64,000 bases of DNA from Gonapodya sp. JEL0774 (GCA_027604505.1 JADIIX010000003.1:1-64000), one strand, 5' to 3'. Numbered from the stretch's first letter, positions 1 through 51,465 are shown. Numbers and translations are program-made. The notes: generated from the letters alone by a model not told the origin.

Positions 1-389
1 GTGAGGAGGGGGTTGGGGGGGGGGGGGGGGAGGGGGGGTAGGGGACAGGCGCACAGCCCAAGTGGAGGAAGAAAATATCTACTCCTTGTAGTTGAGCTAC
101 TGTTTATCCGTGTAGTTGTCGGGTATAACGCGTGTCCAGATATAGCGGGGCCGCCAACCCAAGTATATAGTCTCGGTTGGTGAAAGGGAATATGGGAATT
201 GTAGAGAAATAAAGACTCGGTCAGTAGATGTTGAAACCGTGCAAGGAGGTTGCGCAGTGGTGGTTTATTGCCACCTTCCACAGATGTCACGAGAAGCAAT
301 TAATTTCTTGGAAAAGAAGATTCAAATGAAATTTGATCAGTGAAGATGTGTTAGTTTACCACTAATGCATAGTGATCTACTGGAAATAG

Positions 390-3366
390 TGCTCAAGTGT
401 ACGACTCCGCGTGCTGCGCAATATATCTTCAAGATTGATCAGTCGGAGAGTCGGAGTTGAGTCTTGGTGGAAGGGTTTGGTGGGGGGGGCCTTGCATTTC
501 AGTCGTGGGTGGTGGACGTATTGATGCCTGCAGGACCAACCTGTGTGCAGTCCCTGCTTCGCTCCCAGGGTGGTGGTGCTCTGGGAGCGGAAGGATTGGT
601 GCTTACAAGACTTAAACTCGGAACTATCGCCCCGATCACGAAGTGCGACGACACGACGACATGGAGGCGGATGCACTACGAAGGCGGAAAAGGCCAAAAG
701 GTGTTCCCGCTTATCACAATGGCACGAGTCGCCCCCAGAGAACTTCTGTAGAATCCACCCAGTACTCCATTCTAGGAAGGGCAGAGAATGTTAGAAGAAC
801 TTTTCTATACAGTCACATGGTGATCTGGGGTGTCGGAATGTTCGCTTTGAGTGTGATTCAACTCCTGTGGAACGGCAGGAGGGAGGATTGGGTTCGCGGA
901 CTGAATGAAATGGCTGCATCTCGCGATTTTCAGCCAGCCAAGTGGAATCCACTGATTTGGGGTGGTGCCACCACAGAAGACGTTGTCGTCACTTCGCATT
1001 ACGGAGCAATGCTCATGTTCTTAGCCGGGTCCGTGTTCGCTCTCTTTTCGCTCGCGACGGCTGATGCAGTTAAAGCTAATCTATCTACGTGCCTGGCCGG
1101 GGTGAGCTCTCCCAACTTGTTATGATTTGGGTTCACTCTCACAAAATGTTCCATCAAAAACTTGTTGCACGCCACGATGCCCCTCCCGAATTCGTACTCT
1201 TCCCCCCCCCCCCCCTTCTTCACAGGTTGATATATGCTCATTCTTAACTTATGTGGTTATGATTCTCGGAATAAATCCAATAACACGAGGTGGGACATGC
1301 AATAGGATGGACGAAGACGACACATTCATCTAACTTTCCACCGTCCTCTTCGAAATCTCCAATCTCTTTTGTTGTTTGTGTTAGATTCTTTTGCATCCTA
1401 CACCTTTCACCCCATCCGCTATCTGAAACATGCGACTTGCACCCCATCGATAATATTAATGGCACATGATATTACCGGCGCCACTGCTGCACATCCTGGT
1501 ACGCGCCTTTCGCGACCGATCTTTTGGCCGCTGACTTGCAACTATGGTATCCACATATTTGGGTGAGTGCTGCAGCTGAGATGCACCGACACCTGTTTCT
1601 TACACCCTCAAAGATACCTGGTTGTGGCGCTCCCAAAACCGCTCGCCTATTTAGCTCTCTTCGGGTCTTTTCTTTGCTTTTCCGTCGTCATCAATGACTT
1701 TAATTTGTGTTTCGGTAACGCAATTACCTGGAGGGCTCGAAGGGAGCAAGAGTTGCGGTACGGAAGAAGCCAAAAGGGGAGCCCCGCCATCCCAGAGTTC
1801 GAAGCAGCCTCTATTGATGATGATGAGTTTGATGGTATTGTCGACTCATTGTCTCTGTGGCTCGCGTGGATATCATGTGTGGGTGCGTGGTGCTCGTTTC
1901 CCGTTCTCTTTGTCGGTGAGTTTTGTGGCGCGACATGATTGTCCCCTCTTAACGAGCGAACTTCTTCACAATTTTATGTTACCTACAGGGTTGATCACAG
2001 GGACAATCTCCTACGCGACATTCGAGGCTGGATTCTCCATTGCCGATGTGGGTAAAGTCATCAACCTGAAAACGATCTGTTCACCGCTCTTATCAAACAG
2101 GTGGTCGCCAAAGTTTTTCTTACCTTCATCCTTACTAATGCAAACTTCGAACTGACAATCTTAGATCGATACCGACGGGAAGCAGCTCTCTCTCGCCATT
2201 CTAAGCGTCTTGAAAAACTGGTGGAAATGTTGGGCAGGGAGGTCCACACAAAGCTTCCGCTCACATCAATAGGATAGTAAGTCTCAGTACGATTTGAATT
2301 ATGATCACGAACGTAATCTCACTCCCCGTTGTGCGCATTAGTGGCTTTGATAGGCCCATTACCGTTACATCACCTCGTTTCATTCCGTACGTCACTGCAG
2401 TGACAGCAGACATAGCACGGTTTGACGTGTGGGCAACAGATCAGGATGTGAGAATTTGGACACTGTGTACTGAAACTGTTACTCAAGATGTCTCGTCCTG
2501 TGTTTGAAGAGTGGTGCGGTGCTGCGATCAGCTCGACAACTTTGGCTAGAATGTGACGAGCTTTGCAAGAGGTTCCAAGTGACACGAACCGACATTCTGG
2601 GGTTTGTTCCTCGCTTGTGCGCCACGCTTTTATTTTGTGCGTTGATGGCGCTCCACAATACCTGTAGGGAATCCTATGTTGCAGTTTCTGGTTTCCCTGT
2701 CGAATCGTCGACAACACCGACGAACGACTGTCGCCGCGCAGTTGAATTCGCTATCGAGCTTTTGAGCTTAGCTCAACAATTGAGTCAAAGAACGGGTCGC
2801 CCTATCGACCTCCGGATCGGTATCCACCTGGGTAGTGCGGCGGTGGCATATCTAGAAGGTGGAGGAGAATCCACTCCAGGCTCAGAGTATTCGGATCTCA
2901 CGGCATCGCCGTTGGATATGGCCACGGTCACCTATTCTGAACAAGAGAGAGCAGGGGATAGGGCGTCGGTGTCAAAGTGGTTCCTGGGAGGTAATGCTGT
3001 GGAGTTTGCGACAGAGTTAAAGGTGACATCAAAGGTGAGTGTATTGCTCGCACCTTTTTGTGTTTCCTGTCAACATGATTCCTTGCGGGTCAGCCTGGAT
3101 GTATTCACATATCTGATGCAGTTTATCATTCTATTCTGGGAACAAGAGCGTTTGTCGTGGAAGGTCCCGAGTGCGTTTTTGGTAATTCTCTCTGTTGCTT
3201 GGAGTTGACCATCTGACAAGTACTTCGCAGACTCATCGATTTTGACCCTTTGCGCCACAAATATATTTCGGGAAATGTTGCAGCGACATACTGGGTCTTG
3301 GGCCACGCCAGCGATGAGATGCTGATGGAGGAGGAAGGGGATACCGTGCTAGCAGAGGAAGAATAG
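390..3366 (+). CDS. Microbial (type I) rhodopsin fused to a class III guanylyl-cyclase-like domain (RhoGC/CyclOp family), atypical; multi-exon, 5' end uncertain
   Basis: Manual splicing gives introns at 1102-1225, 1290-1384, 1563-1613, 1916-1988, 2048-2100, 2277-2341, 2448-2509, 2602-2667, 3035-3093 and 3171-3230, all GT..AG and frame-preserving. Rhodopsin segments: KANLSTCLAG|VDICSFLTYVVM, HPIRYLKHATCTPSIILM (helix C), LCFSVVINDFNLCFGNAI (helix E), AWCSFPVLFV (helix F) and FEAGFSIAD|VVAKVFLTFIL (helix G, DxxxK). Cyclase segments: VTAVTADIARF, QLWLECDELCKRFQVTRTDILG|ESYVAVSG, LRIGIHLG, KWFLGGNAVEFATEL, PGCIHISDAVY and TYWVLG. Stop TAG at 3364-3366. The part upstream of about 780 is tentative. 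Confidence 0.9.
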
Positions 3367-3649
3367 GTTTACAGTTCAGGGTGTCGCTTTACCCCACCGT
3401 TAATGCACTGTGCAGCAACTCTATTGCGTGATACTAAGAGAGATTTTTAAGATGTTCGTACCAATGCTGACAAAGGAGGTAACCTCCGCTAAGCCCCTCT
3501 TACAAAAAGGGTGACACGTTGGCTGTGGGAGAGCTGGTTCTAAAGTTAGCTTCCGAAATGCTCCTGAACCAGTTTTGGTTCCGCTCGGGGATACTGAAAG
3601 GCTTTTCCGAGTAACGTATTCCAAGCGATACATACTTGGACACCTACTG

Positions 3650-4763
3650 ATGGCAGCATTCCTTGCCCAAAATTTCAAAGCCGATGCCTGTGAATGCGTA
3701 TTCATCCCCTCTTGGCTGGCTGGCACCGCCAACTTACCTGTTTCATGCTAAGACTCTCTCTACAGGCCCACCTACAACTCCAATTTGTACAACCACATTT
3801 TCAATTTCCATCAGCAGAAGTTCCCTCGTGCGGCTATCCAAGCAAATGGCAGCGCGATCGACGGATGGGAGAATGTCGTGGATTTAGGGTGACGCTTCTG
3901 AATCGAACTTTGGGAGTGTGATGCCGGATGATAATCTTAATAATTTGCAGATGCGGAACCGGACAGGCAACCGTTCCCCTCTCTAGAGAATTTCGAAATG
4001 CATTAGGAGTGGATCCCTCCACCAAGATGCTCGAATCGGCAAAAATCGCACCGAATATAACCTACAAGTTGGGCAGTGAACATGACATTCCGGTGCCAGA
4101 GGGAAGCGTGGATTTGGTTGCAGCCGCACAGTGCGCTCACTGGTTTGACACTGAAGCGTTCATCTCTGAAGTTCGTCGTGTTCTGCGACCCCACGGCACG
4201 ATTGCACTTTGGGGATACTCGCTTGTCCACGTTCGGGACAAACCACTTCTCACTCAGCTTTTGCGAGAAACCGCTTATGGTACTGGTGAAGGTCAAGTTG
4301 GGCCGTAGTACGTGCACCCCGTGATTGAGCGTGCTGTGTTGAGTTGCCTCATCATTGACTCCCTTGTTTTTTGACATTACAGCTGGGAAGATGGGAGGAA
4401 GATTTTAGAGAACAAGTATGAGAGCATCAAGCTGCCGTTCAAGGAACAGAAAAGGTGATCCAATTCTTTGAGGTTGTCTTCATTATGCGTCTGTTTCCTA
4501 ACCTTTGTTCGGAAAGGATCTACTTTCCTTCACCCACAGAGGGTACAATGATTGATCTAGATATGCCGCTCCCGGCATTCAGGCACTATGTCGGTACATG
4601 GTCTTCTTATAAACACTGGAAGGAGGACCCCAAGAACAATGGAAAGAGTGATCCTTTGGACGCCATGGTTGCAAAGATTGCCGAGGAACTGGGTGGTTCG
4701 GGAGATGAAACGGTGGTACAGTTAGAATGGCAAGGGGTTCTCATATTGGCGACAGTTGATTAA
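3650..4763 (+). CDS. SAM-dependent methyltransferase (Methyltransf_11, Crg1/Tmt1-like), multi-exon
   Basis: Spliced MAAFLAQNFKADAYSLYRPTY...VVDLG|CGTGQAT (SAM motif I), GVDPSTKML, VDLVAAAQCAHWFD, VRRVLRPHGTIALWGY and TWSSYKHW. Confidence 0.9.
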
Positions 4764-9595: not shown

Positions 9596-12500
9596 CTACT
9601 CCTCATCTTCCAAAGGGATTCGACTTGACTCGCTGACCAGGACAACTTCCACATTATCGAGCAACGATGTTGCTTGTTCACCCATCGCCTCAGCAATGAT
9701 TCCATGATCCCCGCCTCTAGTAGCCTCCGAGGTGCTTGCTACACTCGCGAGGCTACTTGTCGCGCCAGCGAACGCATTGGGTGGCCCACGTGACGAAGTC
9801 TTCGATGCTTTCTTCGTAGTAAGAGCACGGAAGGACTCAATGTGTTGGAAGACCTTTTCAAAGGATGGAAATCAGATTGCTTCAATTCCGGATTTGTCGC
9901 AAACTCTCACCTTCAACATGTTTGCACCTTCATACAGATCATTCGGCTCAAACTTTGCATACTTGTTACCCATGACGGAAGTAGCCTCAACATAGTTCCT
10001 GATATTTTCCTTTACCACAAGGTTATTAATCAAGATAAATCGCTCACCCCAATCGAAGGACTTACCATGTGAACCATCCTAAACTTGCCAGATCTCATTG
10101 ATGCTTTACCGCCAACACCATTCACGAGTTTGCACAGAACGGTACCATCTTTCAGCCACTCTTGGGTCGTCCGCTCGCCTTTCTGCTCTCCAACCACGGA
10201 TTCAATCCATTCCACAACCTGAGTCTCCAAATCCTGACCGATGACCTTTGTCGGAAGGTGGAAATTCGGATTGTAGGTCGAAGTGTCAATCTCGTGCTCT
10301 ACCAGTTCCTCAGACGGCGTTCGTTTCACTGGCTTCGGAGGCACCACTGGTTTGGAAGAGGGTACCGGTGGCCGAGTCTTGAACGACGGGGCGGGCTTCT
10401 CGCCCACAGTTTCAACCGGATCCTTGAGCTCCACATGCTCTGTCACATCTGGGACAGACCTGGGCTTTGGTTTAAGTCTTTCGATCTGGACCCCACCCAT
10501 GCCTCCGAAGACATTTCGCCCTCCCAATCGCGCCAGCTTCGCTGCTCTCTCTGCAGCCCTCTTGGCTTCTTGATCCTCCGGCGTTTCTTCAATCACGGTC
10601 CCATCCAACTGATCGTCAGTTAAAGAAGCAGTAAGAATATCCGCACTCTCCCGAACAGTCTCCTCACTCAACACATCAGGATTGGTGGGCAATGACACGC
10701 CCCCTAACATGCTCACTCCACCGATTCGACGTAGGAGGGACTCTTTATCCACAGGGGTCTGTTTCTCGATTTCGGAGACAGCTTCCGAATCATTTTCTGC
10801 CTCGACTGTTTGTAGAGATTCAGGTACCTCCTCCGGTTCACTTGCCGGAGAGCTGACAGCAGGCGCCACAGAAGAATGTTTACGGGCTTTCAACGCAATC
10901 CGTGATTTTGCTGCCTATATTGTAGGTGCCATTGGCCACATGGGTTTGACAACAACACCGACAAGGCAGAACTCACCGTGGAGGCCTTGACTTCTGCGAC
11001 CGCCACTATCCCTGCAAAAACGTCTTTCTTGGTTTCTTCTTTTGCCACATCGTCGCTCAGTGCCTTGACACTGGGTTCTCGAGGAACTCCGACCACGCTA
11101 GGTTCAACTTCCGGAGTGGACGCTTGTGGATTGAAAGCTCCAGGCGATTCCAAACTATGAGTTTTAACTGCAGGTTCAATGTTCTCGTCCTCCATTTCTG
11201 TTGCTAGCTCCACAGTGACAGGAGTCAATCGTTCGCTCACATCATTACGCGCCACAGAGACGGTCACGGCCAAGGGTTGCTTGTCAACAGGGCCCGCAGC
11301 CGGCGACACCGAGTTACGGCTGAACGAAGTTTGTTGGTCAAGAGTCACAGCTGTCGGGGGTGGTGCGGAAGTCTCCTTCTCATGCTCCACGCCATGAGAG
11401 GCTGAACGCTGTTTGTGGTGCTCGACGCTGCCGGTTCGCGACAGTCCATTGTCTCCGATAACCTTGATCTTCCCCATTCGTGCCAGCCGTGCAATTCTTT
11501 CCTCCCTAGCTCGCTTCGCCTCCGCAAATTCCTGAGGGTCATAAGCCTCGTCATGGTGTTTCTGTGATAAGTCTTCCTCCTCCACCCGTTCAGGTGCTGC
11601 CTCCTCTTTCATCGCTTCGGGTTCTTTTCCCTGGTCGATGCTCGTCGTCCTCCCGTGAGCACCTTCTGGTCTAACCTTTATCTTTCCCATCCTTGCCAAC
11701 CGCGCCATTCGGTCCTCCCGAGCACGTTTAGCTTCTTCAACTGGGTCCGACGGGTCGTAAACCTCGAGAGTCTCCGTTAGCGCCTCCGGCACAAAGTTCG
11801 AGGCAGGGGCAGGAGAGGCGTCTCCCGCCAATTGAGGACTATTTGCAATATCAGAGGCAGCTACATCCTGTTCAGTTTTGTTCCTCGAAACCGGAAGCAT
11901 CCCCCCCATCACACCAACGCCACCCATCCTTGCGATTCGCGACGCCCTTTCACGTCGCTCGTTCTCTACTTTCAAAGCGACTTCCTCAGCGTTCAATTCC
12001 CCGGGAGGAGTCACAGTCGAAGCGTCTGTTGGGTCAACAATCCCAGCAGTCGAAGGCTCTAGTGGGGGAACACCGGAAGAAGAACCAACTTGCAGCTCTA
12101 ATGAGCCTGTCCTTCGTGCAACTACCGGGGGCGGGGACTCATGACCTTGCTTCGCCTGCGCAGCGCTGGAATCAGATCCAGAGTTCGAAGAATCGGCTGA
12201 CTTGACGGCACCAAGGCCAAGCTCTACTGATGCTCCACCAGAGCCAAACCGTCTTAAAGCAGGAAGGGGACCCCCTCCAAACACACTAACACCTCCCATC
12301 TTGGACAGTCTCTCCTTTCTTTCCCTGGCTTTAATCTCTTCGTCGTCCTCAATAGTCAGCTCGATTTCTCTAGCTCCCATGGCCACGGGCACGTTTCCCA
12401 CAGAAGGTGTCGACGAAGCAGGAGAAGATATTACCTGGCGTGAATCATCCACCACTGAGTCCGAAGAGCGGGTCGGTCGAGCAGGCACAGGTGGGGTTTC

Positions 12501-14347
12501 GTCTGGCGACTGCTTTTTGTTAGTTGCTGAACCCAAATTATCGTCCGAGCCAGGGAAATAACCAAGATCCGAAAAGTTCGATCCCAGATCAATTTTAAGA
12601 GACTCGAGTTGGATGTTCGGAACTGCTCTCCTTGCATTTGTGACTGCCTCTCGACCCAATGACTCCGACCGATCCTCTATCTCATCACTAGCATCGCGGA
12701 AGTGGATCTCTTCCTCCTCCTCCACGCTGGCCAGAGACGCACTTGCTGATCCTGACGGTGGAGCAACACGAGCTGGACTCGCAGGGGCCGAGCTCGCAGC
12801 CGATCCCGGTAGGCTCGAGGGAGGAGTGCCTCCAAGTCCCCAGGCAGAAGAAGGGAGCACAACCGGGCTCGGCGGTACTGAACCAGGGCGGAATGAGGTG
12901 GGAGTTGGAGGTGGAGCCGGCGGGAGGAATGGAGTGAGCGGGGAAGGAGGCACAGACGGGAAAGCCGCAAAGTTTGGGCTCGGTGGCTGGTTGATGTTGA
13001 GCAACGGCGGCAACGGCGGTGTAAGATGCGCTGGCGAAGAGGAATCGGGCGAGGGGTGTGCACGCTGGGCAGCAAGTGCAGCGAGTGGAGGGCCGAGCTG
13101 TCGGAGGTTCGGCGGGCGTCTTGGCGGGGGAATGGGACCTCCGACGAATTCCTCGGCAGAAGACGATACACCGGGTGGACGAGGCACAGGAAGATGAGAG
13201 TTAGGCTGCTGTATCTGCTGGGACGAAATCCCACGAGGTGGATGACCTGGGTACGGTTGTGCGAGGCTGCCAGAACTGTATTCGGAGTAGGCCGTCTGAG
13301 GGTACCCGGATGGGACAGCAGATGAAGCGATGACCCTTGGAGGAAGCATCGAGGAGGAAGGAGAATTCGCGAACGGTGGTGGAGATGGATTCACTGAAGG
13401 GATTTTATGAACACAAGTAAGTGTGCAATCCGCCGGCAACGCAAGCTTCGAGACAAAGTAACCAGGAAAGTGGATGCCGCTTGAGATCTTCAAAACGACA
13501 TCTTCCACATTCCGTTGTCTTTCATGTCTGTTCCAAAAGACGTGAAGTTCTCCCCTCTACCCCCCTACCCTTCCCCCCCCCCAAACCGTGTCTCGAGAAG
13601 CAGAGTGCCCACGAACCCTCAATTATTTTATTATTCACCTTTGCTCGGGGTTTGTGGTCCGGGGCCTGTTTTCGTGCGATAGGGGGACATGGCGAGTAGG
13701 TAAGGAGGATGAAAGACTCTCTGAGCACTTGCAAAAAGGGTTCATGGCGTATTATCTAAGAACAATACTACATACCATGTTCATGGGCGTCGGCGCTGTT
13801 GCGGATCACAGTCCGGGATTGATTGTGTGGCGTTGTTCATGTAAGATGGTGGATCAATCTGATGTTCGCTCTACCAAACCAACCTAACATACTCCTCGTA
13901 TCCTCCATAAGCTTGCTGCTGATTTCTATTTTTCTTGGCCATGGCGGGCATCCGGAAACCCCCCGTGCTCGCCGATGTCAACTGCACTGGGGCATACTCT
14001 TGGTTTTGCGAATCGGTCCATCCTCCGCCGTGCTGTCGAGGCGGCGACTGTTGATAGGTATACTCCTGACTGTACTGCTGCTGTTGGGATGATGCCTCAG
14101 GCGGGTGCTGAGGTTGACCGTGATACGTTGCTTGACCTAGTTGCGGATTCGCAGGTGGCGATGAACTGTCGTCTTTTCCCTGTTTCTTGCCAAACATGCC
14201 GGCAAAGAGACCCTTCTTTTTCTTGCCATCAGCGTCGTCACGATCCTTGTCTCTGCCGCTGAGCATTGGGGAGTTCTTCAGTGTATTATGTTTCGGGTGG
14301 AGATCGGATGACCTTTGTGCAACCTGCTCTGCGGTCCCTTGCTTCAT
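9596..14347 (-). CDS. Large proline-rich actin-cytoskeleton protein with a C-terminal calponin-homology (CH) domain and six repeated R-x-x-R/K-M/L-G motifs; multi-exon
   Basis: CH domain: QVVEWIESVVG...WLKDGTVLCKLVN...HM|ENIRNYVEA...FEPNDLYEGANMLK|VFQHIESF. Long in-frame exons at 10030-10893 and 10890-13400. The 5' exons (MKQGTAEQ..., 14347) are joined tentatively. Stop at 9596-9598. Confidence 0.7.
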
Positions 14348-14493: not shown

Positions 14494-15372
14494 TCAAGTA
14501 TGTTTCACTTTCAAGTCGTCCTGTGATTTATGTTTCTGGTTCTCCGCAGTAGTCGCTTCAGCCTCCTCCTTTGGTACTCCACCCTGCACCTCTCGTTCAC
14601 GCTCATTCTCGGCTCCCGCATCCACACCGTCACGGTCAACAACATCATCCCCATCCAAGTCAGAACCACCCAAACCCCCGGGATTAATGAGAGCGCCAGC
14701 AGCGGCCGCAGCTTGCATCGCTGCCGCAGCGGCGGCTGCAGCGGATGCCGCGTCGTGGTCTCCAACATCACCAGATCCATTGTGTGTCCCGTGAAGTTGT
14801 TGGAAGACAACGAATGAGTGCGCGGCGGGATGCTCAGAGGGATCCATGACGATAGATTGTTGGTAGAGTGGTTGAGCAGTTGCTGCCATGCCGAGCAGTG
14901 CGACACCACCATGGTGGTGGAGACCACCTGACGCTGCAAGGCGCACAGAAGTGTCTCCATGGCGTTTGAGAATGTTTGAAACGGTTTGTTGGGTGATTGT
15001 GACGCCATGGCGCTCCTGAACCATTCGGACAGCGTCAATTTGGCGACGAGACGGCTCTTCCACCAGCCACTGAAAAATCTCGTCCTCAAGCTCAAGAGAG
15101 CACTTTGGCGGCTTCCCTGCCTTCCGAAGAATGGGTGCGCTGTTGTCAGGTGGGTCGGGCATGGCCAACCATCGATACATTGTCCTTAGGGAAACCTGGT
15201 ACGCCTTAGCAATATCTTTTGCGGAGAGTGTAGTGTTCTCTTTTAAGTATTTGCAGACCTGGATGAGCTGGCGACGATCCAGCTCAGGCAAACCGGACGA
15301 GGGGGGAGCATGGACAGTGACCGTATGTGGGTTTGGCGCGATATTGAGTTGATGCTCGTTCTCAGCGTCCAT
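14494..15372 (-). CDS. Helix-turn-helix DNA-binding protein derived from the Tc1/IS630 transposase N-terminus, with no DDE domain
   Basis: LSAKDIAKAYQVSLRTMYRWL (HTH1), the GKPPK AT-hook-like linker, and EEPSRRQIDAVRMVQERHGVTITQQTVSNILKRHG (HTH2), followed by His, poly-Ala and acidic low-complexity sequence. Confidence 0.75.
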   Translation of the reverse strand: MDAENEHQLNIAPNPHTVTVHAPPSSGLPELDRRQLIQVCKYLKENTTLSAKDIAKAYQVSLRTMYRWLAMPDPPDNSAPILRKAGKPPKCSLELEDEIFQWLVEEPSRRQIDAVRMVQERHGVTITQQTVSNILKRHGDTSVRLAASGGLHHHGGVALLGMAATAQPLYQQSIVMDPSEHPAAHSFVVFQQLHGTHNGSGDVGDHDAASAAAAAAAAMQAAAAAGALINPGGLGGSDLDGDDVVDRDGVDAGAENEREREVQGGVPKEEAEATTAENQKHKSQDDLKVKHT

Positions 15373-15724
15373 CACGTTGAGATGATTGGAACAGTGGACG
15401 GAGCCTTGAAGAAGTGCCGAGGGGCTTAACGCGCTGATTTGGGAGTGAGTGCGGTTTCCGTGAGGTTTGGCGCTTTTTCTACTCCACAGCTGCTGCGCAA
15501 AGAGTTCCGCTGTCGGACTTGGTGATCGGTACAATCGTCTGCAATAAGAAAGTCAAGAGTGAAGTCGCGCAGATGAGAAGACAAGGCCCGGGTGCTCACA
15601 ATTAGCGATGGCAATCGTTTTGTCACGAGGTTTTGTGTGGCAGCAACAGCATAGAGGTTCGGCTAAACACTAATAAGCATTCAAACTTTTTCAATTTCAT
15701 CAACCGCCAACTAAGAGGTCACAC

Positions 15725-24090: not shown

Positions 24091-26017
24091 TTACTCCCTA
24101 TCTATCACCAGCTCCCAATCCCGCCATACGAGCGGAATGGAGCTCCACTCGATTCCATGAATGATCCTCCCCAACTCCTTGTACAACTCACGCTCTGGAT
24201 CATCCCTCCGGAAGCCGTGTAAGCTACCTACTGCCCGAAGTGTCCGACGTACACGGTGGAAAAAATCGAAAAGGGCGAGGTCCGACACGAACTTGAAATT
24301 GAGGCTCAACGAAACCAAGGGGGTAGGGTATGACGGACAAGTTGAGGAAATGTAACCGGAGGATTGGGAAGGCGACGTCCTGGTTGTAGAGTGGGCTGCG
24401 TGGCCGTCGGCAATTGAGGCGGGATGGATCCGGGATTCCAGTCCCACATCCTGATTACCGCTGTTCCTGCCCACTATGGACCCTACAGAACCCACGAACG
24501 ATCTCCGCCTCCCATTATTATTGGACGGTTCCGCTCCCGCCCCTCCCGCCCATCTCCACAAATGTCTGGATTGCACTCCCTCCGAATCAAAGTTGAGCAT
24601 CTTCAAATACCTCAGTCCAGAGCCACCATCAGACCCAACAATGGCGTCTAGAGACTTAACAGTGAGTAGGCGACATCCTGCCACTCCAAGAGCATTGAGT
24701 TGGGGGAGGACAGCAACCAAGGCACGCACATCGGAGTCAGTGATGGCAGTTTGGAAGTCAAGGATCAAGTGAGAGAGGTGAGGGAAGGCAAACACACTCA
24801 GAGGAGGAGAAGCTACGTGTGGTTGTATAGGTTCAGTGGTTGTTGGGCAAGTATTCTGCTCCGCCACGAATGCCCAAGACACCAGCGGCTTAATGCGAAC
24901 TGACGCAAAGCTTTCAGTTCCAAACCGCTCACCCATGCTCCTGTTTGCGCTGAGATCCAGCCTCTCAAGCTGCCTGCAATGATGTTTCATAGCTTCAAGG
25001 GCCTTGGGCCTCCAGAACCCAGGTACGTCCTGTACCTGCAGGTGTATCAAGTTCGGCCCTTTCGAGGAAAGAAAATGACAGACAGCATCCGGAGTGAAAC
25101 CTCGTGTGTATGTGATGCCGAGGGAGCGGAGTCTTGGGAGATTATCTGAGGTAGCTAGCAGAAAGGGATCATCAAGTGCGTTTGTGGAGAAGATGTATAG
25201 GGATTCTAGATTCGAGAGGCGCTCAAAAACTTGTTGGAAGAATGTTGGCGGCACATCCGAGACAAAGAATGAAGATGGGAAGAGGGAACAGTGGAGATTG
25301 CAGAGGTTCAGCGACATAAGAGGATGCAGGGAGAGACGCCGCAGAAAGGCCGGTTTGGTGAAGTGCGTGCCCCGACCCAAATCGATGGAAGTGAGGTAGC
25401 GGTCATTGGGAACTGGCATTTCCACTGCAACGTTACCACCGTCTCCACAATTTGATGCCCCTCTCGCACTCTCTACGAGATTGAAAGCCCTTTCACGACC
25501 CAGCGATGCATCCGCAAAATCAATGATATAGCCAGGATCAAACATGCTTCCTCCAACCCCACGCCCGAGCTTCAAACCCCACAGGGTCGGTCTTACAAGT
25601 TTCAAAATGTCGCCTAACATATCGGCGGTCATCTCCGTTTCGGTAGAAGCACGCGCTAAGTCCAAGTAGCGAACTGGAAGTTTCAGACGGCGCACGTCTG
25701 GGGAGAAGGATTCGTAGATGGCGAGGAAGTGGTTGAGTGTGCGCGATGTTCGCAGGGTTGGCTTCTGCGAGCACAGTTCAAATCATAAAAGCTGTGCCGA
25801 TCCGATCCTGATGCGTTTCACTCACCTCGTAAAGCATTCTTAGCGCCAGCGCGGTCATTCCCCTGTTTCCTGCCATGGCACATGCCCGTAGGTCCGGTGC
25901 CTTGGCAACCCACCCGACCACCAGAAGCAGGACATCATCTGAGAGTTTTTGCGTTTGAAATCGTCGGGATATATCAGACAAATCCGCTGAGTCCGAATGG
26001 GTCATCGTTTCATTCAT
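24091..26017 (-). CDS. F-box-like / RNI-type leucine-rich repeat protein
   Basis: N-terminal KLSDDVLLLVVGWV...LRACAM...ALRMLYE (F-box-like). LRRs LSNLESLYI, LPRLRSLGI, CRQLERLDLS, ITDSDVRALVAVLPQLNALGVAGCRLLT. One exon of 534 codons. Confidence 0.75.
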
Positions 26018-47959: not shown

Positions 47960-50900
47960 TTGATGCGGCATCTTGTAGCTGGAGCGGGACATTGGCTTTT
48001 CTGTGAAGGGGGGGGGGGCATTTGTGCTAGAGGCAGAGCATTGTCGGGGTTCGTCGGAGCAATGGAACCGCCAATCAGACATGAAAACGGAAGTGGAAAT
48101 GGAAGAAGAAACATTTCTGGCGTTGCCGGGAGCGTTGAGGGGACGGTTGCCAAAGGTGAAGACATTCCCCTGACAGCATACAAGACGCATCACGGTCACA
48201 AGACGCAACACCGCAATGAAGAAGCACACAATACAGATAGCTGTCATCGAAATCGTGTGCTCTCAGACTCGTTCTTCGCTGCTCTGATCGCGTCGCTCGC
48301 CCCAACACCAAATTTGTACGGCATCTTCGACTCCCCGCTCTCCGCCGACTCTCTCCTCTCCGCGATTGCCAACCACGTGCCTTCCCTCTCAACCCCAATC
48401 TCTCCTATTGCTTCTCCCCTCTCGCTCTACGTCGACTCTCCTCCTCCACCCCTTGTACACCCGTGGACCGTCTACCTCCGCATATCCGCTGCCCACCCGC
48501 CAGGACCCACAAACATTCTTTCTCGCGTCCATTATCACACCCTCCTTGACCTACTCGTCTCTCCCGCAGTCGTGGTAGTCGACGGTAAACAAGCTTGTCT
48601 CGATAGGGTGAGGAGGGTCCTCAGAGATATGGCGGCAACTCCCCTTCACATTCTTCAGGACCACATTGTTGATGTTGCAAGGAATGGTGCTGAGAGGAAC
48701 CGCAGTGTGGAGAGTGGTGTGAGAAATGCGGTTGGTGAACCTGTCAAAGTACGTTCTGCCCCTGCGGTGCTTCAAGTTTGTGGTCTTGGCAACTTCGCTC
48801 AGGCTGGTGGAGAGTGAGGGAGATTATTTGAAGGGGTCTGTCAATGGAGTATCGGAGTGTGTTTGAGTGTGTGAAGATCCTCAACTTATTGGTGCAGTGG
48901 GATTGCAGATGTTGGCCTAGGCTGGTTGCCGAGCACGAGTGCCGGTGAGGTTTGTGGGCACGTAGAACGATTGGAGTTATGGATGTCGTGGTGCCGGTGG
49001 AGTTGGGGGTGTTGTGGAGTTTGTTATTTTGCGGACGACTTCCGGACGACTTCCAGAGGCTATGAGGCGCATGCAATTTTCTCTAGTTGGTGGAATGGTT
49101 GAACTTAGTGGATGTGGTGGAGGTCCGTAATGTTGGTGCAGTTTGGGTAGTCAAGGAACAGCTTGCGCCTGCAACTGGTGACAGCGGGAGCTCATGGCAG
49201 GCGTGGAGTTTGCGAACCACATCCACACGCCATACACTGTGTGAAGTTTATTAGCAAATGCCAGTTGTCCGGCAAGCTACATGCTTGGAGTCACTGTTGC
49301 CCAAAACTGACATTGCTTCTCAGCTCCCCACTGCCCTCCCCCTCGACCTATCAGAATGGAACTACCTCCTCACCGCGTACTCTCGTGCAAATTCTCTCAT
49401 CTACTCTACTGCCTACCTCCGAGACATTGAGGTTCTCCTCCGATCTTCCCTAGGAGCCGACTTTGGGAACCGCGTTTTTACAAAAGGAGAACGAACGAAG
49501 TCGCCGTGGGCGCCGCAGCAGCGGCGAGAAGCTGACGAGGGGAATGATGAGGAGCTAGCGGATGAGCATGTTCATGTGCATAGAGATGGGCAGGCACAGG
49601 AAGAGCATGAGCCACATGTCGCTCAAGATCGTAGTGCCCTTCTGCTCCCTTTCCGCTACCCATCCCCACTGCCCGCGTTCATCCTCCTCCCCTACCGCCT
49701 CTACCTCACACACCTCCTCTGCCTCCCTCACCCATCCGCGTTACTCTATCCGATGACCACCCTGCTCTCCTACGCAGCAACCCGACCCGTGCTGTGGATG
49801 ATGTGGTGTAGGGATACTCACGTCGCAGGACTGGTTGCCGCGGTGTTTGCGAGGACAGCGTCGTGGGACTACGAGAAGGCCGTGTGGTGGGCGCGAAGGA
49901 TGGTAAGGGGTTTAGAGAGAGACGGGGAGCAGAGAGAGAGCAGAGAGGGTGGACAAGGGGAGCCATACGAGGACGACGTGCGTATTGGGGAGGGAAGGGA
50001 AAACCAGGTCCATTCCGCGTCAAAGGGTTCATCGGTGAACCTGACGAATGCGGCGGCATCGCGTTCCTCGGTGCCCGGACAGACCTCAACAGCCACTCCC
50101 CTCCGCTTGCCCGCATCCCTCGCTGCCACACTCCTCCTCTACCATGCGAAAACTCACCGAGCCTATTACGCCCCTTCGGCGTCGACCTGGGCGGGGTCGG
50201 TCTGGCCGAATTCTGCAAAGGCGAATTTGGGGCCCTTAAGATGGAATACAGAATCGGTCTCTACGGTTCCCTCGCCTCCCTCTTCGTCCTCCCCGGAGTT
50301 TATGATCTCCATGCTCATGTCACATCCGGCAATGGCATTAGCAGGGAATGGGAGTGGCGCAGGGGCAGCAACTGTGCAAACACAGGGAGATCTGAGTCAC
50401 CAGACGACTGTTCCCACCCTGTTGAAGGCACCGTCGCGGTCCGTACAACCAGCACACCCACCTACGCGCACACCCACACCCAACCAGAACGCTCTTTTTC
50501 TGGTTCTCCACCTTAACACACTTCTCTCCCGCCACGTCTCCCTCGAACGCCACCTCCGCCCGTTCCGCTTTCACCACCCTGCCCAATCGCGCACCAACGC
50601 GCCGCCCCCTTTACCACCCGCACTGTGCACGTCTCTTGCCCTCTTCTACTCTCAATTCAACTCTCGCTCCGCGGACAAATGGGCCGCCCGGGTTGTGGAA
50701 GAGTATCCCGGTACCGAGTGGTCCGATGCGGCAGGAGAATCAGGGGCGCGGGCGTGGGGGAGGAGCGGGTGGCCAAGGAGAGCCGAGTCATGGGTCGATG
50801 GGAGGAGGAGGACGGTGCCAGGTGGTACGGTGACGGCAGTTGCCGAGGTGGTAGAGGGGTGGGTTTCCGCGGTGGAGAGAAGTCTGGCGGGGAGGAAGGT

Positions 50901-51465
50901 CGTTCTGTGGTTGGCCGAACCAGATGAGAGAGAAATGCGCTTTGCGGATGAAAAGAGGATGAGTAATAGGGACATGATGGAGAGAGCCGAGTGGTGGTTG
51001 AAGAGGATGGACAACGGAACAGCATCTGGTGGGGGATTGGCGGGTATGCTCGCCCGCGTCGCGAATGTGCATCGTGCAAGTCTCGCGGGCGCTAGTCAGG
51101 CACGTCAGGGTGGAGATGCGGGGAGGGGCTACGTGGACATGCTGGCTGTGCGGAGGGTGGCCGAGGGTTGGATGTTGCTTGGGGATGAACGGAGGGCACG
51201 GGAGATTGTGATGTGGGGGGAGGCACGGGGGGGTAAAGGGGTGCTTGGAGCGTACGGGAAGGCGGGGTTGTGTGGAAGGTGGAGGGTGGGCGGGGACCTG
51301 GAGGCTGTGCGGTGTTGCCGTGGAGAGGAGGTAAGGTGGTGGGAAGGTGTTAATGGCTTTGTGTTTGGGTGGGGCGAGCAGGCAGGCACAGGTCGACAGA
51401 GGAGGTCAGTTAGCCATGAAGGAGATCATGCTGACTGGGAGAACGATGTCCCTGCACTGTACTAA
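47960..51465 (+). CDS. Hypothetical large helical protein, possibly a degenerate PPR-like mitochondrial protein
   Basis: Open frames of 285 and 735 codons with helical segments such as EWNYLLTAYSRAN. No firm domain, and the exon structure is unresolved. Confidence 0.45.

What the first reader, a model, noticed from the sequence alone, without database searches (positions are those of the whole stretch)
780..3366. Intron-fragmented rhodopsin-cyclase fusion (RhoGC-type photoreceptor) of an unusual kind
Seen: ten canonical introns join into one frame with a multi-TM N-terminus, a microbial-rhodopsin helix G (EAGFSIADVVAKVFLTFIL, Schiff-base Lys at 2110-2112), a helical linker and a class III cyclase fold ending in TYWVLG. 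Established: this architecture and these motifs match the rhodopsin-guanylyl cyclases of zoosporic fungi (Blastocladiella BeGC1/CyclOp, Catenaria RhGC, Rhizoclosmatium RGC/NeoR), which are linked to zoospore phototaxis and used in optogenetics. Inference: both the chromophore pocket and the enzyme depart from the canonical forms (next two findings) while the frame stays intact over about 2.6 kb. It may therefore be a distinct sensor or regulatory subunit of a light-signalling system rather than an ordinary RhoGC.
Basis: partly seen in the sequence, partly recalled or inferred. Interest (0 to 1): 0.95.

Follow-up and report, generated by a model that had tools for sequence, protein, structure and literature searches.

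The report
Divergent rhodopsin-cyclase photoreceptor gene in Gonapodya
This chytrid-like fungus carries an intact, intron-rich gene for a light-sensor (rhodopsin) fused to a cGMP-making enzyme domain that lacks key catalytic residues. It likely works only as a regulatory partner of the fungus's ordinary rhodopsin-cyclases, and the public annotation has it truncated and wrongly joined to the next gene.

Summary
Window 661-3366 (+) joins through ten GT-AG introns into one 665-residue frame: eight hydrophobic helices, a helical linker and a class III cyclase domain ending in TYWVLG.

The organism is Gonapodya sp. JEL0774 (Monoblepharidomycetes). Its GenBank model HDU93_005133 starts inside exon 3 and is mis-joined to the neighbouring methyltransferase gene.

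A profile of 14 other rhodopsin-guanylyl cyclase (RGC) rhodopsin domains scores the spliced N-terminus at 115.7 bits (best of 200 shuffles: 4.6). The nearest solved cyclases are the Catenaria and Blastocladiella RhGC cores.

The protein is an outlier within the family:
- The helix-C counterion Glu is Lys, and the neighbouring Trp is His.
- In the cyclase, the second metal Asp is Glu, the base-binding Glu/Cys are Asp/Phe, and NxxxR is ExxxE.
- About 40 residues are inserted in a beta-hairpin.

A G. prolifera fragment (KXS18228.1, 59% identical) shares these cyclase changes, so the lineage is retained rather than decaying. Neither protein appears in two published RGC surveys.

Best reading, untested: it is inactive alone and acts as a NeoR-like, metal-donating regulatory partner of the canonical Gonapodya RGCs. 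This is a new variant of a known kind.

The parts
661..1101 (+). Exon 1. Holds the start ATG (661-663), about 50 cytoplasmic residues, the extra N-terminal TM helix 0 (residues 48-66), a 27-residue insertion and helix A (116-134).
   Evidence: The frame is open from 616, with an in-frame TAA at 613-615. It aligns to RGC helix 0 and helix A. Exons 1-2 alone score 17.7 bits against the RGC rhodopsin profile, against a best shuffle of 4.6.
1226..1289 (+). Exon 2: helix B (VDICSFLTYVVMILGINPITR).
1385..1562 (+). Exon 3: helix C (HPIRYLKHATCTPSIILMAHDITG) and the start of helix D. The codon for K183 is at 1426-1428 (the counterion Glu in other RGCs) and the codon for H184 is at 1429-1431 (Trp in other RGCs).
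   Evidence: Alignment and residue table: Glu in 11 of 14 other RGC rows and Lys only here; Trp in 13 of 14 and His only here. Exons 1-3 score 46.3 bits against the RGC rhodopsin profile.
1614..1915 (+). Exon 4: helices D (end), E and F, with a roughly 30-residue insertion in the E-F loop. W320, F323 and P324 correspond to the WxxYP motif.
   Evidence: The AlphaFold model gives pLDDT 84-92 for these helices.
1989..2047 (+). Exon 5: the F-G loop and the start of helix G. D348 (second counterion) is at 2045-2047.
2101..2276 (+). Exon 6: the rest of helix G, with the Schiff-base K352 at 2110-2112, running straight on into the helical linker.
   Evidence: Sequence. Lys is present in 15 of 15 other rows. 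Pfam Bac_rhodopsin matches helices F-G of P0001 at 18.3 bits, below the 24.6 cut-off. The model shows one continuous helix over P0001 residues 144-206.
2342..2447 (+). Exon 7: the end of the linker and the first cyclase strand, with the first metal-binding Asp D430 at 2409-2411 (TADI).
   Evidence: PDB alignment to 6sir; residue table.
2510..2601 (+). Exon 8: cyclase helix and strand. D470 at 2591-2593 stands in place of the guanine-binding Glu.
   Evidence: The G. prolifera orthologue has the same Asp.
2668..3034 (+). Exon 9, the cyclase core:
- E474 (2669-2671) replaces the second metal Asp.
- R522 (2813-2815) is kept.
- An insertion of about 40 residues lies at 2852-2971.
- F578 (2981-2983) replaces the base-binding Cys.
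- E585 (3002-3004) and E589 (3014-3016) replace the Asn and Arg of NxxxR.
   Evidence: Pfam Guanylate_cyc scores 27 bits on this exon alone and 55.5 bits on P0001. Both NxxxR positions are acidic in only 2 of 258 cyclase-domain rows, this protein and its orthologue. The insertion has pLDDT 33-38 and lies between two strands.
3094..3170 (+). Exon 10: PGCIHISDAVYHSILGTRAFVVEGPE.
3231..3366 (+). Exon 11: the last cyclase strands with TYWVLG (3286-3303), an acidic tail, and the TAG stop at 3364-3366. The GenBank model lacks this exon.
   Evidence: Gap-free alignment to G. prolifera KXS18228.1 across the junction.

Best explanation
Window 661-3366 (+) holds an intact 11-exon gene of Gonapodya sp. 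JEL0774 for a 665-residue protein of the fungal rhodopsin-guanylyl cyclase (RGC) family; because its cyclase half keeps the metal-binding side but lacks the base-binding and NxxxR residues, it is predicted to be inactive on its own and likely serves as the metal-donating, regulatory partner in a heterodimer with one of the canonical RGCs of the same fungus.

Shown directly:
- the gene structure;
- family membership;
- the substitutions listed below;
- that the cyclase substitutions are shared by a G. prolifera orthologue fragment.

Inferred, cyclase side. Class III cyclases build each active site across the dimer. One subunit gives two metal-binding carboxylates and a phosphate-binding Arg. 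The other gives the base-recognising pair and Asn/Arg. This protein offers D430, E474 and R522 on the first side. On the second side it offers D470, F578, E585 and E589, so a homodimer has no complete site. Paired with a canonical RGC it would form one possibly active site (its metals, the partner's Glu/Cys/NxxxR). The second site would carry two acidic residues and a Phe and would probably not bind GTP. This is the asymmetry shown experimentally for NeoR/RGC1 of Rhizoclosmatium, taken further.

Inferred, rhodopsin side. K352 and D348 are kept, so retinal binding is plausible. Lys at the primary counterion position and His in place of the pocket Trp would lower the Schiff-base pKa or call for a bound anion. 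The pigment is therefore predicted to be UV/violet-absorbing or anion-dependent rather than green.
For: Gene and family:
- Ten GT-AG introns join into one frame.
- GenBank's model shares exons 3-10.
- The RGC rhodopsin profile scores 115.7 bits, E 1.3e-37, against a best of 4.6 bits in 200 shuffles.
- The relatives used for that profile score 43.6-91.7 bits on Pfam Bac_rhodopsin.
- The best PDB sequence hits are 6sir at 1.5e-16 and 6ao9 at 5.8e-16; the next cyclase scores 1e-9.
- The AlphaFold model built with a 21-row alignment has pLDDT 73.7. Its cyclase domain matches 5oyh, 6sir, 6aob and 6ao9 at target TM-score 0.76-0.80.
- The protein lies in the RGC clade, 100/100.

Degenerate half-site:
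- Residue table and PDB alignment.
- ExxxE or DxxxE occurs in only 2 of 258 cyclase-domain rows, this protein and its orthologue.
- Glu at the second metal position occurs in 10 of 258 rows. Two of them (P0132, P0063) keep the phosphate-binding Arg, Asn and Arg, and P0132 also keeps the first metal Asp.

Retention:
- The orthologue KXS18228.1 is identical at 105 of 178 aligned residues.
- It shares 11 derived states at family-conserved columns, and it shares the insertion.
- The stem branch is 2.06 substitutions per site, against tips of 0.42 and 0.40.
- The frame stays open over 665 codons despite about 70% divergence from other RGCs.

Partners exist. Broser 2023 lists two other JEL0774 RGC entries, KAJ3338019.1 and KAJ3338020.1 (PMC10622942, supplement 2).

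Precedent. In NeoR/RGC1 only one site is active, NeoR gives the metal Asps, NeoR lacks NxxxR and NeoR-cat is inactive alone (PMC12264004, passages).
Against: - No transcript, partner contact or activity was shown.
- The Schiff-base Lys to first metal Asp spacing is 78 residues. It is 73 in 10 of 14 other RGC rows, including the NeoR type. The PPxV part of the transducer element is changed, which could hinder a matched coiled coil with a canonical RGC.
- E474 may not bind metal, and then no site would be active.
- NeoR keeps the Glu/Cys pair and both Asps; this protein does not.
- No second RGC lies in the 64-kb window, unlike the clustered NeoR/RGC(a) genes. Only 660 nt upstream of the gene are visible, however.
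- The orthologue fragment does not cover the rhodopsin, so conservation of K183 and H184 is unknown. A single GAA-to-AAA base difference or an assembly error would account for K183.
- I saw only the first 400 residues of the canonical Gonapodya RGCs in the supplement, so I did not check their catalytic residues myself.
- G. prolifera has a further degenerate relative (KXS20541.1), so the partner could be something else.
Confidence: 0.45

Rival explanations
1. It is a pure pseudo-cyclase. The protein would make no cGMP in any pairing, because E474 fails to bind metal. It would then act as a dominant-negative brake on the canonical RGCs, or as a light sensor that signals through conformation or protein contacts alone.
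For: Five of seven catalytic positions are changed. Both NxxxR positions are acidic, seen in only 2 of 258 domain rows. The fold and interface-forming core are kept, with 25 of 47 conserved cyclase columns retained. The changes are conserved in two species. Published work shows that restoring NxxxR in NeoR-cat does not restore activity (PMC12264004).
Against: D430 and R522 are kept and the second metal ligand is still a carboxylate. That selective retention would be unnecessary in a fully dead domain. Glu at that position occurs in domains that otherwise keep the phosphate-binding Arg, Asn and Arg.
Confidence: 0.25
2. It is a relic. This would be a duplicated RGC under relaxed selection and on its way to loss, with no present function.
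For: The stem branch is very long at 2.06 substitutions per site. Only 39 of 67 family-conserved columns are kept. No RNA holder was listed. Both Gonapodya annotations model the gene only in part. Galindo 2022 reports that G. prolifera lacks the BeCNG1 channel (PMC9616733, passage).
Against: The frame is open over 665 codons and all ten splice sites are intact, despite a divergence at which neutral drift would be expected to have introduced many stops (my estimate). The orthologue is 59% identical and shares derived residues and the shared insertion. The tips are five times shorter than the stem. Lys352, Asp348, Arg180, Trp320, D430 and R522 are all kept.
Confidence: 0.12
3. It is an active homodimeric light-regulated cyclase that uses an unconventional catalytic set, possibly with another substrate.
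For: The domain fold is intact. Asp/Phe in place of Glu/Cys could change base preference.
Against: No class III cyclase among the 258 domain rows, other than this pair, has acidic residues at both the Asn and the Arg position. The Arg stabilises the transition state (established knowledge; cited in PMC12264004). The Lys of the KGKG strand is also missing.
Confidence: 0.06
4. The GenBank model is right. On this reading the gene makes a protein without helices 0-C, with the cyclase fused to a methyltransferase.
For: It is the deposited annotation. The donor at 3182 is a GT.
Against: - The model drops the last cyclase strands, which lie in frame after a 60-nt intron and align without a gap to the orthologue.
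- It drops SAM-binding motif I of the methyltransferase, which has its own upstream exon (...VVDLG|CGTGQAT, intron 3889-3950). Pfam covers profile positions 5-94 on the window ORF but only 19-94 on P0001.
- Exons 1-3 score 46.3 bits against the RGC rhodopsin profile.
Confidence: 0.03

Closest known systems
Homodimeric fungal rhodopsin-guanylyl cyclases: RGC(b), BeGC1/CyclOp, CaRhGC, and Gonapodya GopRGC1/2 with KAJ3338019.1
   Same: - Eight-helix type I rhodopsin, helical linker and class III cyclase in one chain.
- Helix G signature ADVVAKVFLTxxLxN.
- Helix C frame HPxRYLxxxxCxP.
- The cyclase domain is closest to the CaRhGC and BeGC1 cores by sequence and by fold.
   Different: - The counterion Glu is Lys and the pocket Trp is His.
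- The cyclase lacks Glu/Cys and NxxxR, and has Glu for the second metal Asp.
- About 40 residues are inserted in a beta-hairpin.
- The Lys-to-Asp spacing is 78, not 73.
- No Cys-rich N-terminal motif was found in the 660 nt upstream.
- It is about 27% identical to these cyclase cores (Foldseek), whereas Broser 2023 reports about 50% between distant RGC cyclases (PMC10622942, passage).
Neorhodopsin (NeoR/RGC3) of Chytridiales, the obligate heterodimer partner of RGC(a)
   Same: - The cyclase has lost NxxxR while keeping a carboxylate pair and the phosphate Arg. Published work shows that such a subunit donates the metal side of the single active site and is inactive alone (PMC12264004).
- The rhodopsin has an unusual counterion set.
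- An AU test does not reject grouping with the NeoR clade (p 0.29).
   Different: - NeoR has the Glu/Asp/Glu triad; this protein has Lys/Cys/Asp at those positions.
- NeoR keeps Glu/Cys and both Asps, has TxxxK rather than ExxxE, and keeps the 73-residue spacing.
- The best tree places the Gonapodya pair elsewhere.
- Published NeoR occurrences are limited to Chytridiales and Cladochytrium (PMC10622942).
C1-type halves of heterodimeric class III cyclases (tmAC C1, sGC alpha)
   Same: One half keeps the metal ligands and has lost the Asn/Arg and base-recognition residues, which gives one catalytic and one degenerate site (established knowledge, as summarised in PMC8815786).
   Different: Those are not rhodopsin-linked. 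Their degenerate site binds regulators such as forskolin, and no ligand is suggested here.
G. prolifera KXS18228.1 and KXS20541.1 (uncharacterised database entries)
   Same: KXS18228.1 is the orthologue (59% identical, same substitutions and insertion). KXS20541.1 groups with the pair at 98/94 and shares the acidic GxASDE tail.
   Different: Both are partial models of 202 and 364 residues. KXS20541.1 has a different set of losses: the first metal Asp is Cys, the second Asp is kept, and NxxxR is DxxxV. The join carries a long-branch warning.

Membership tests
Fungal rhodopsin-guanylyl cyclase (RGC/RhGC/CyclOp) | N-terminal type I rhodopsin domain homologous to RGC rhodopsins (helix 0 plus seven helices) | tested here: met
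   A profile of 14 other RGC rhodopsin domains scores model residues 1-365 at 115.7 bits (E 1.3e-37). The best of 200 shuffles scores 4.6 bits. Eight hydrophobic segments are present and the alignment runs over all helices.
Fungal rhodopsin-guanylyl cyclase (RGC/RhGC/CyclOp) | Schiff-base Lys in helix G, with a carboxylate four residues before it | tested here: met
   K352 (2110-2112) and D348 (2045-2047). Lys is present in 15 of 15 other rows.
Fungal rhodopsin-guanylyl cyclase (RGC/RhGC/CyclOp) | Carboxylate counterion in helix C (RYLEW) and the adjacent pocket Trp | tested here: not met
   K183 and H184. Glu occurs in 11 of 14 other rows, with Asp, Gln and Cys once each. Trp occurs in 13 of 14.
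Fungal rhodopsin-guanylyl cyclase (RGC/RhGC/CyclOp) | Helical linker of fixed length between rhodopsin and cyclase | tested here: not met
   The helix is continuous from helix G. The Lys to first metal Asp spacing is 78, against 73 in 10 of 14 other rows (range 61-74).
Fungal rhodopsin-guanylyl cyclase (RGC/RhGC/CyclOp) | C-terminal class III cyclase domain nearest to RGC cyclases | tested here: met
   Pfam PF00211 at 55.5 bits against a cut-off of 21.9. 6sir, 5oyh and 6ao9 are the best cyclase hits by sequence and among the best by fold. The RGC clade has 100/100 support.
Fungal rhodopsin-guanylyl cyclase (RGC/RhGC/CyclOp) | Complete catalytic set (two metal Asp, Glu/Cys for guanine, NxxxR) | tested here: not met
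   The residues are D430, E474, D470, F578, E585 and E589.
Fungal rhodopsin-guanylyl cyclase (RGC/RhGC/CyclOp) | Cys-rich cytoplasmic N-terminus (MKDxDxxLRGAC..C.C), seen in several RGCs | tested here: inconclusive
   It is absent from all three frames of window 1-720. The window ends 660 nt upstream, and several RGC database entries also lack the motif.
Fungal rhodopsin-guanylyl cyclase (RGC/RhGC/CyclOp) | Retinal binding and light-activated cGMP synthesis | not testable with these tools
   This needs expression with retinal and an enzyme or reporter assay.
Neorhodopsin (NeoR) subfamily | Glu/Asp/Glu counterion triad | tested here: not met
   Lys, Cys and Asp stand at these columns. The NeoR-type row P0071 has Glu, Asp and Glu.
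Neorhodopsin (NeoR) subfamily | Cyclase without NxxxR but with metal ligands | tested here: met
   ExxxE here, with D430 and E474 (the second ligand is Glu, not Asp). NeoR is described as TxxxK with D339 and D383 in PMC12264004.
Neorhodopsin (NeoR) subfamily | Placement in the NeoR clade | tested here: inconclusive
   The best tree places it elsewhere. Holding it with the NeoR rows costs 7.6 log-likelihood units, p-AU 0.29, so the grouping is not rejected.
Neorhodopsin (NeoR) subfamily | Head-to-head gene cluster with its RGC(a) partner | tested here: inconclusive
   No other cyclase or rhodopsin lies in the 64-kb window. The side on which a divergent partner would lie is cut off 660 nt upstream.
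Pfam Bac_rhodopsin (PF01036) | Score at or above the gathering cut-off of 24.6 bits | tested here: inconclusive
   P0001, which lacks helices 0-C, scores 18.3 bits over helices F-G. Single exons give nothing. The spliced full protein could not be handed to the Pfam tool. Eight full RGC relatives score 43.6-91.7 bits.

The most novel reading that the evidence does not exclude
Gonapodya has invented, independently of the NeoR/RGC(a) pair of Chytridiales, a second kind of asymmetric rhodopsin-cyclase. Its dedicated subunit supplies only the metal side of a single active site, and its retinal Schiff base faces a lysine instead of a carboxylate. That would give a UV/violet or anion-gated pigment that tunes the canonical green RGCs. 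It would be a new chromophore environment for microbial rhodopsins and a naturally 'cleaned' non-catalytic site.
Probability: 0.25. Interest if true: 0.75.

Novelty: new variant of a known kind. Interest (0 to 1): 0.55.

Why it matters
- RGCs are the photoreceptors of fungal zoospore phototaxis and are working optogenetic tools. Their known diversity is homodimeric RGC(b) plus the NeoR/RGC(a) heterodimers.
- This gene and its G. prolifera orthologue form an unsurveyed lineage. I did not find them in the supplementary sequence lists of Broser 2023 or Galindo 2022, and no paper in the library holds their accessions.
- The lineage carries the cyclase asymmetry further than NeoR does, and it places a Lys at the primary counterion site. 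If the protein is functional, it offers a natural test of how much of one half-site a class III cyclase dimer can lose. It would also be a candidate pigment with unusual spectral or anion dependence.
- The result corrects a chimeric GenBank model.
- It suggests that 'partial' or 'truncated' rhodopsin-cyclase calls in Gonapodya can be annotation artefacts rather than gene decay.

Tried and rejected
- **Word-index protein searches.** Three searches (exon 9 against longer proteins; P0001 residues 1-470; P0001 residues 108-300 at E up to 10) found only P0001 itself.
- **Exon-wise Pfam.** It gave nothing for the rhodopsin exons. A PDB search with exon 3 alone gave no rhodopsin.
- **Whole genome.** None is held for this window, so I could not search for paralogues, CNG channels or retinal-synthesis genes beyond the 64 kb.
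- **RNA evidence.** No RNA holder was listed.
- **Collection scans.** Viral contigs and metagenome contigs, using an alignment of exon 9 and P0002, matched patterns but returned no relative.
- **ESM Atlas.** The nearest clusters were giant-virus guanylate-cyclase proteins (0.92-0.94). HMMER instead ranks fungal RGCs first, so I treat this as likeness of architecture and not as kinship.
- **AlphaFold.** The single-sequence model had pLDDT 44.5 and was not used.
- **Foldseek.** With the alignment-based model, the 40 listed rows (ranks 1-50; further chains of listed entries are left out) were all cyclases. No rhodopsin chain appeared among them. The model holds only helices D-G, so this says little.
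- **Earlier scan notes.** There were none for this genome or sequence.
- **Complex prediction.** I did not run it. The canonical Gonapodya RGCs were not available as stored sequences, P0001 lacks the last cyclase strands, and any two class III domains would be expected to pass by likeness to solved dimers.
- **Base-Glu column.** It was set one residue off, so I did not use it.
- **Alternative last intron 3182-3220.** Rejected.
- **Literature searches** for D85K, and for a lysine at the counterion site, found nothing relevant.
Full report
**What is there**

The region lies in a eukaryotic window of about 50% GC. From the first ATG of an open frame (661; in-frame TAA at 613-615), eleven exons join through ten GT-AG introns of 51-124 nt. 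They form one frame of 665 codons ending at the TAG at 3364-3366.

The helix-G peptide spans exons 5 and 6, the Lys codon is at 2110-2112, and TYWVLG is at 3286-3303. Two details change: the likely start is 661 rather than 780, and the last intron is 3171-3230.

**Whose gene it is**

Exon 9 retrieved one database protein at 100% identity: P0001, HDU93_005133 of Gonapodya sp. JEL0774 (Monoblepharidomycetes), 637 residues. That model uses my exons 3-10, but it starts at a Met inside exon 3 and then jumps from 3181 to about 4007 into the next gene. It is a chimera, for three reasons:
- It lacks the last cyclase strands, which follow in frame after a 60-nt intron.
- It lacks SAM-binding motif I of the methyltransferase, which has its own upstream exon (...VVDLG|CGTGQAT, intron 3889-3950). 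Pfam covers profile positions 5-94 on the window ORF but only 19-94 on P0001.
- Exons 1-3 encode recognisable rhodopsin helices (see below).

**Family**

On P0001, Pfam gives Guanylate_cyc at 55.5 bits and Bac_rhodopsin at 18.3 bits, below the 24.6 cut-off, over helices F-G. In the PDB the best cyclase hits are the rhodopsin-cyclase cores 6sir (1.5e-16), 5oyh and 6ao9 (5.8e-16). The next cyclase scores 1e-9.

Three word-index searches found only P0001. The exhaustive HMMER search found 906 proteins at E up to 1e-3, 54 at up to 1e-10 and 2 at up to 1e-30. After P0001 itself come P0002, P0003 and a series of rhodopsin-cyclases of zoosporic fungi: Allomyces, Gorgonomyces, Obelidium, Siphonaria, Chytridium and Podochytrium, with names.

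The spliced protein aligns with these over helix 0, helices A-G, the linker and the cyclase. A profile built from 14 of their rhodopsin domains, leaving out all Gonapodya divergent sequences, gives these scores:

| Part of the model | Score (bits) |
|---|---|
| Residues 1-365 | 115.7 |
| Exons 1-3 alone | 46.3 |
| Exons 1-2 alone | 17.7 |
| Best of 200 shuffles | 4.6 |

Eight full relatives score 43.6-91.7 bits on Pfam Bac_rhodopsin.

An AlphaFold model of P0001 residues 1-431 with a 21-row alignment has mean pLDDT 73.7. It shows helix G running on as one helix to residue 206, a confident cyclase domain and a disordered insert. Foldseek matches the cyclase part to 5oyh, 6sir, 6aob and 6ao9 at target TM-score 0.76-0.80. 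No rhodopsin chain is among the listed rows, but the model holds only helices D-G.

**How it departs from the family**

Rhodopsin:

| Position | Other RGC rows | This protein |
|---|---|---|
| Helix-C counterion | Glu in 11 of 14 (Asp, Gln, Cys once each) | Lys183 |
| Neighbouring pocket residue | Trp in 13 of 14 | His184 |

Arg180, Trp320, Pro324, Asp348 and Lys352 are kept. The correspondence of these positions to bacteriorhodopsin Asp85, Trp86 and so on is from my own knowledge, not from a call.

Cyclase:

| Role | Canonical residue | This protein |
|---|---|---|
| First metal ligand | Asp | D430 (kept) |
| Second metal ligand | Asp | E474 |
| Guanine binding | Glu | D470 |
| Guanine binding | Cys | F578 |
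| NxxxR | Asn ... Arg | E585 ... E589 |
| Phosphate binding | Arg | R522 (kept) |
| KGKG strand | Lys | lost |

Among 258 cyclase-domain rows from all hits, only this protein and its orthologue have acidic residues at both NxxxR positions. Glu at the second metal site occurs in 10 rows; two of these keep the phosphate-binding Arg, Asn and Arg, and one of the two also keeps the first metal Asp.

About 40 residues are inserted at the tip of a beta-hairpin (P0001 345-381, pLDDT 33-38). The spacing from the Schiff-base Lys to the first metal Asp is 78 residues, against 73 in 10 of 14 other rows.

Of 67 columns conserved in at least 85% of the other RGC rows, the protein keeps 39: 12 of 16 in the rhodopsin, 2 of 4 in the linker and 25 of 47 in the cyclase. 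No Cys-rich N-terminal motif lies in the 660 nt upstream.

**Is it alive?**

P0002 is KXS18228.1 of G. prolifera JEL478, a 202-residue partial model. It is identical at 105 of 178 aligned residues. It carries the same Asp, Glu and Phe, and DxxxE in place of NxxxR. It has an insert of similar length with shared motifs, and it shares 11 derived states at family-conserved columns.

In a 26-row, 401-column tree the two are sisters (100/100) on a stem of 2.06 substitutions per site, with tips of 0.42 and 0.40. They sit inside the RGC clade, which has 100/100 support against eight other cyclases. So a burst of change was followed by slower evolution in both species. Together with the open frame and intact splice sites, this argues against a decaying pseudogene. 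The orthologue fragment does not reach the rhodopsin, so conservation of Lys183 and His184 is unknown.

A second G. prolifera entry, KXS20541.1 (P0003, 364 residues), joins the pair at 98/94 under a long-branch warning. It has a different set of losses. An AU test does not reject grouping all three with the NeoR-type rows (p 0.29), so the exact position within the family is open.

**What is already known**

- Galindo 2022 (PMC9616733, passages) reports for G. prolifera a 'partial CyclOp' with an N-truncated rhodopsin (KXS22530.1) and no BeCNG1 channel.
- Broser 2023 (PMC10622942, section 5 and supplement 2) places homodimeric RGC(b) sequences in Monoblepharidomycota. It lists GopRGC1, GopRGC2 and, for JEL0774, KAJ3338019.1 and KAJ3338020.1. 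The supplement cells were shown to me cut at 400 characters.
- The terms 005133, KXS18228 and KXS20541, and two motifs of this lineage, do not occur in those supplements. KXS18228 and KXS20541 are also absent from Galindo's supplements.
- No paper in the library holds these accessions.
- Broser 2022 (PMC8815786, passages) states that RGC1 and RGC2 keep all catalytic residues.
- The 2025 EMBO J paper (PMC12264004, passages) shows that NeoR/RGC1 has one active site, with base-binding residues from RGC1 and metal aspartates from NeoR. It also shows that NeoR lacks NxxxR and that NeoR-cat is inactive alone. Removing nucleotide binding at the non-catalytic site raised activity ninefold.

**Mechanism proposed**

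The pattern kept here is a carboxylate pair plus the phosphate Arg. The pattern lost is the base-binding pair, Asn, Arg and the strand Lys. That is the pattern of a subunit able to give only the metal side of an inter-subunit active site.

I therefore predict three things:
- The protein has no activity as a homodimer.
- A heterodimer with a canonical Gonapodya RGC has one possibly active site.
- The heterodimer's second site is unable to bind GTP.

The rhodopsin keeps what is needed to bind retinal. With Lys at the counterion position it would have a destabilised protonated Schiff base, so a UV/violet or anion-dependent pigment is the likely outcome. All of this is inference.

The points against are the longer linker, the untested Glu at the metal site, the absence of any partner gene in the window (the upstream side is cut at 660 nt), and the lack of expression data.

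**Context**

The rest of the window holds ordinary genes and no second cyclase, rhodopsin or cyclic-nucleotide-gated channel, judging from Pfam on 109 ORFs of at least 125 residues and tblastn of the model against the window.

**Verdict**

This is a real, intact and mis-annotated member of the rhodopsin-guanylyl cyclase family. It belongs to an uncharacterised, Gonapodya-specific lineage. It is a new variant of a known kind, with a plausible but untested NeoR-like regulatory role.

Noticed in passing
window 3182-4006 and 3760-4763: GenBank protein HDU93_005133 is a chimera of the rhodopsin-cyclase gene and the downstream Tmt1-like methyltransferase (PDB 3g5t, 4.3e-22). The methyltransferase has its own upstream coding exon ending ...VVDLG at 3888, joined to CGTGQAT at 3951.
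   Followed up: yes
P0003 (KXS20541.1, G. prolifera JEL478): This is a second degenerate rhodopsin-cyclase relative, annotated as 'adenylyl cyclase' (364 residues, helices F-G plus cyclase). The first metal Asp is Cys, the base-binding Glu/Cys are Gly/Val, and NxxxR is DxxxV. Bac_rhodopsin scores 25.6 bits. I could not check whether JEL0774 has a counterpart.
   Followed up: partly
P0010 (eukprot Clim_evm8s57): This is a full rhodopsin-cyclase fusion (Bac_rhodopsin 75 bits, Guanylate_cyc 171 bits) with TxxxK in place of NxxxR. Its source name points to Corallochytrium, a non-fungal opisthokont.
   Followed up: no
alignment: The distance from the Schiff-base Lys to the first metal Asp is exactly 73 residues in 10 of 14 RGC representatives, including the NeoR type. 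This suggests a strict register requirement for the linker.
   Followed up: partly
window 14497-15552 (-): A 352-residue ORF gives weak HTH_32, HTH_33 and HTH_23 matches, as seen in transposases of the Tc1/IS630 kind.
   Followed up: no
window 10893-13556 (-), 24094-25782 (-), 49255-51462 (+): Three long ORFs (888, 563 and 736 residues) have no Pfam family at E up to 1e-3. The last lies in the most GC-rich part of the window (0.55-0.57).
   Followed up: no
window 1-40 and 1202-1215: There is a G-rich run at the very start of the window and a run of 14 C inside intron 1.
   Followed up: no
(ESM Atlas): By language-model features, the nearest clusters to P0001 residues 1-425 are giant-virus guanylate-cyclase proteins of 435-538 residues (0.92-0.94). 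Earlier scan notes describe this viral family as divergent rhodopsin-cyclase fusions. HMMER does not rank them above fungal RGCs.
   Followed up: partly
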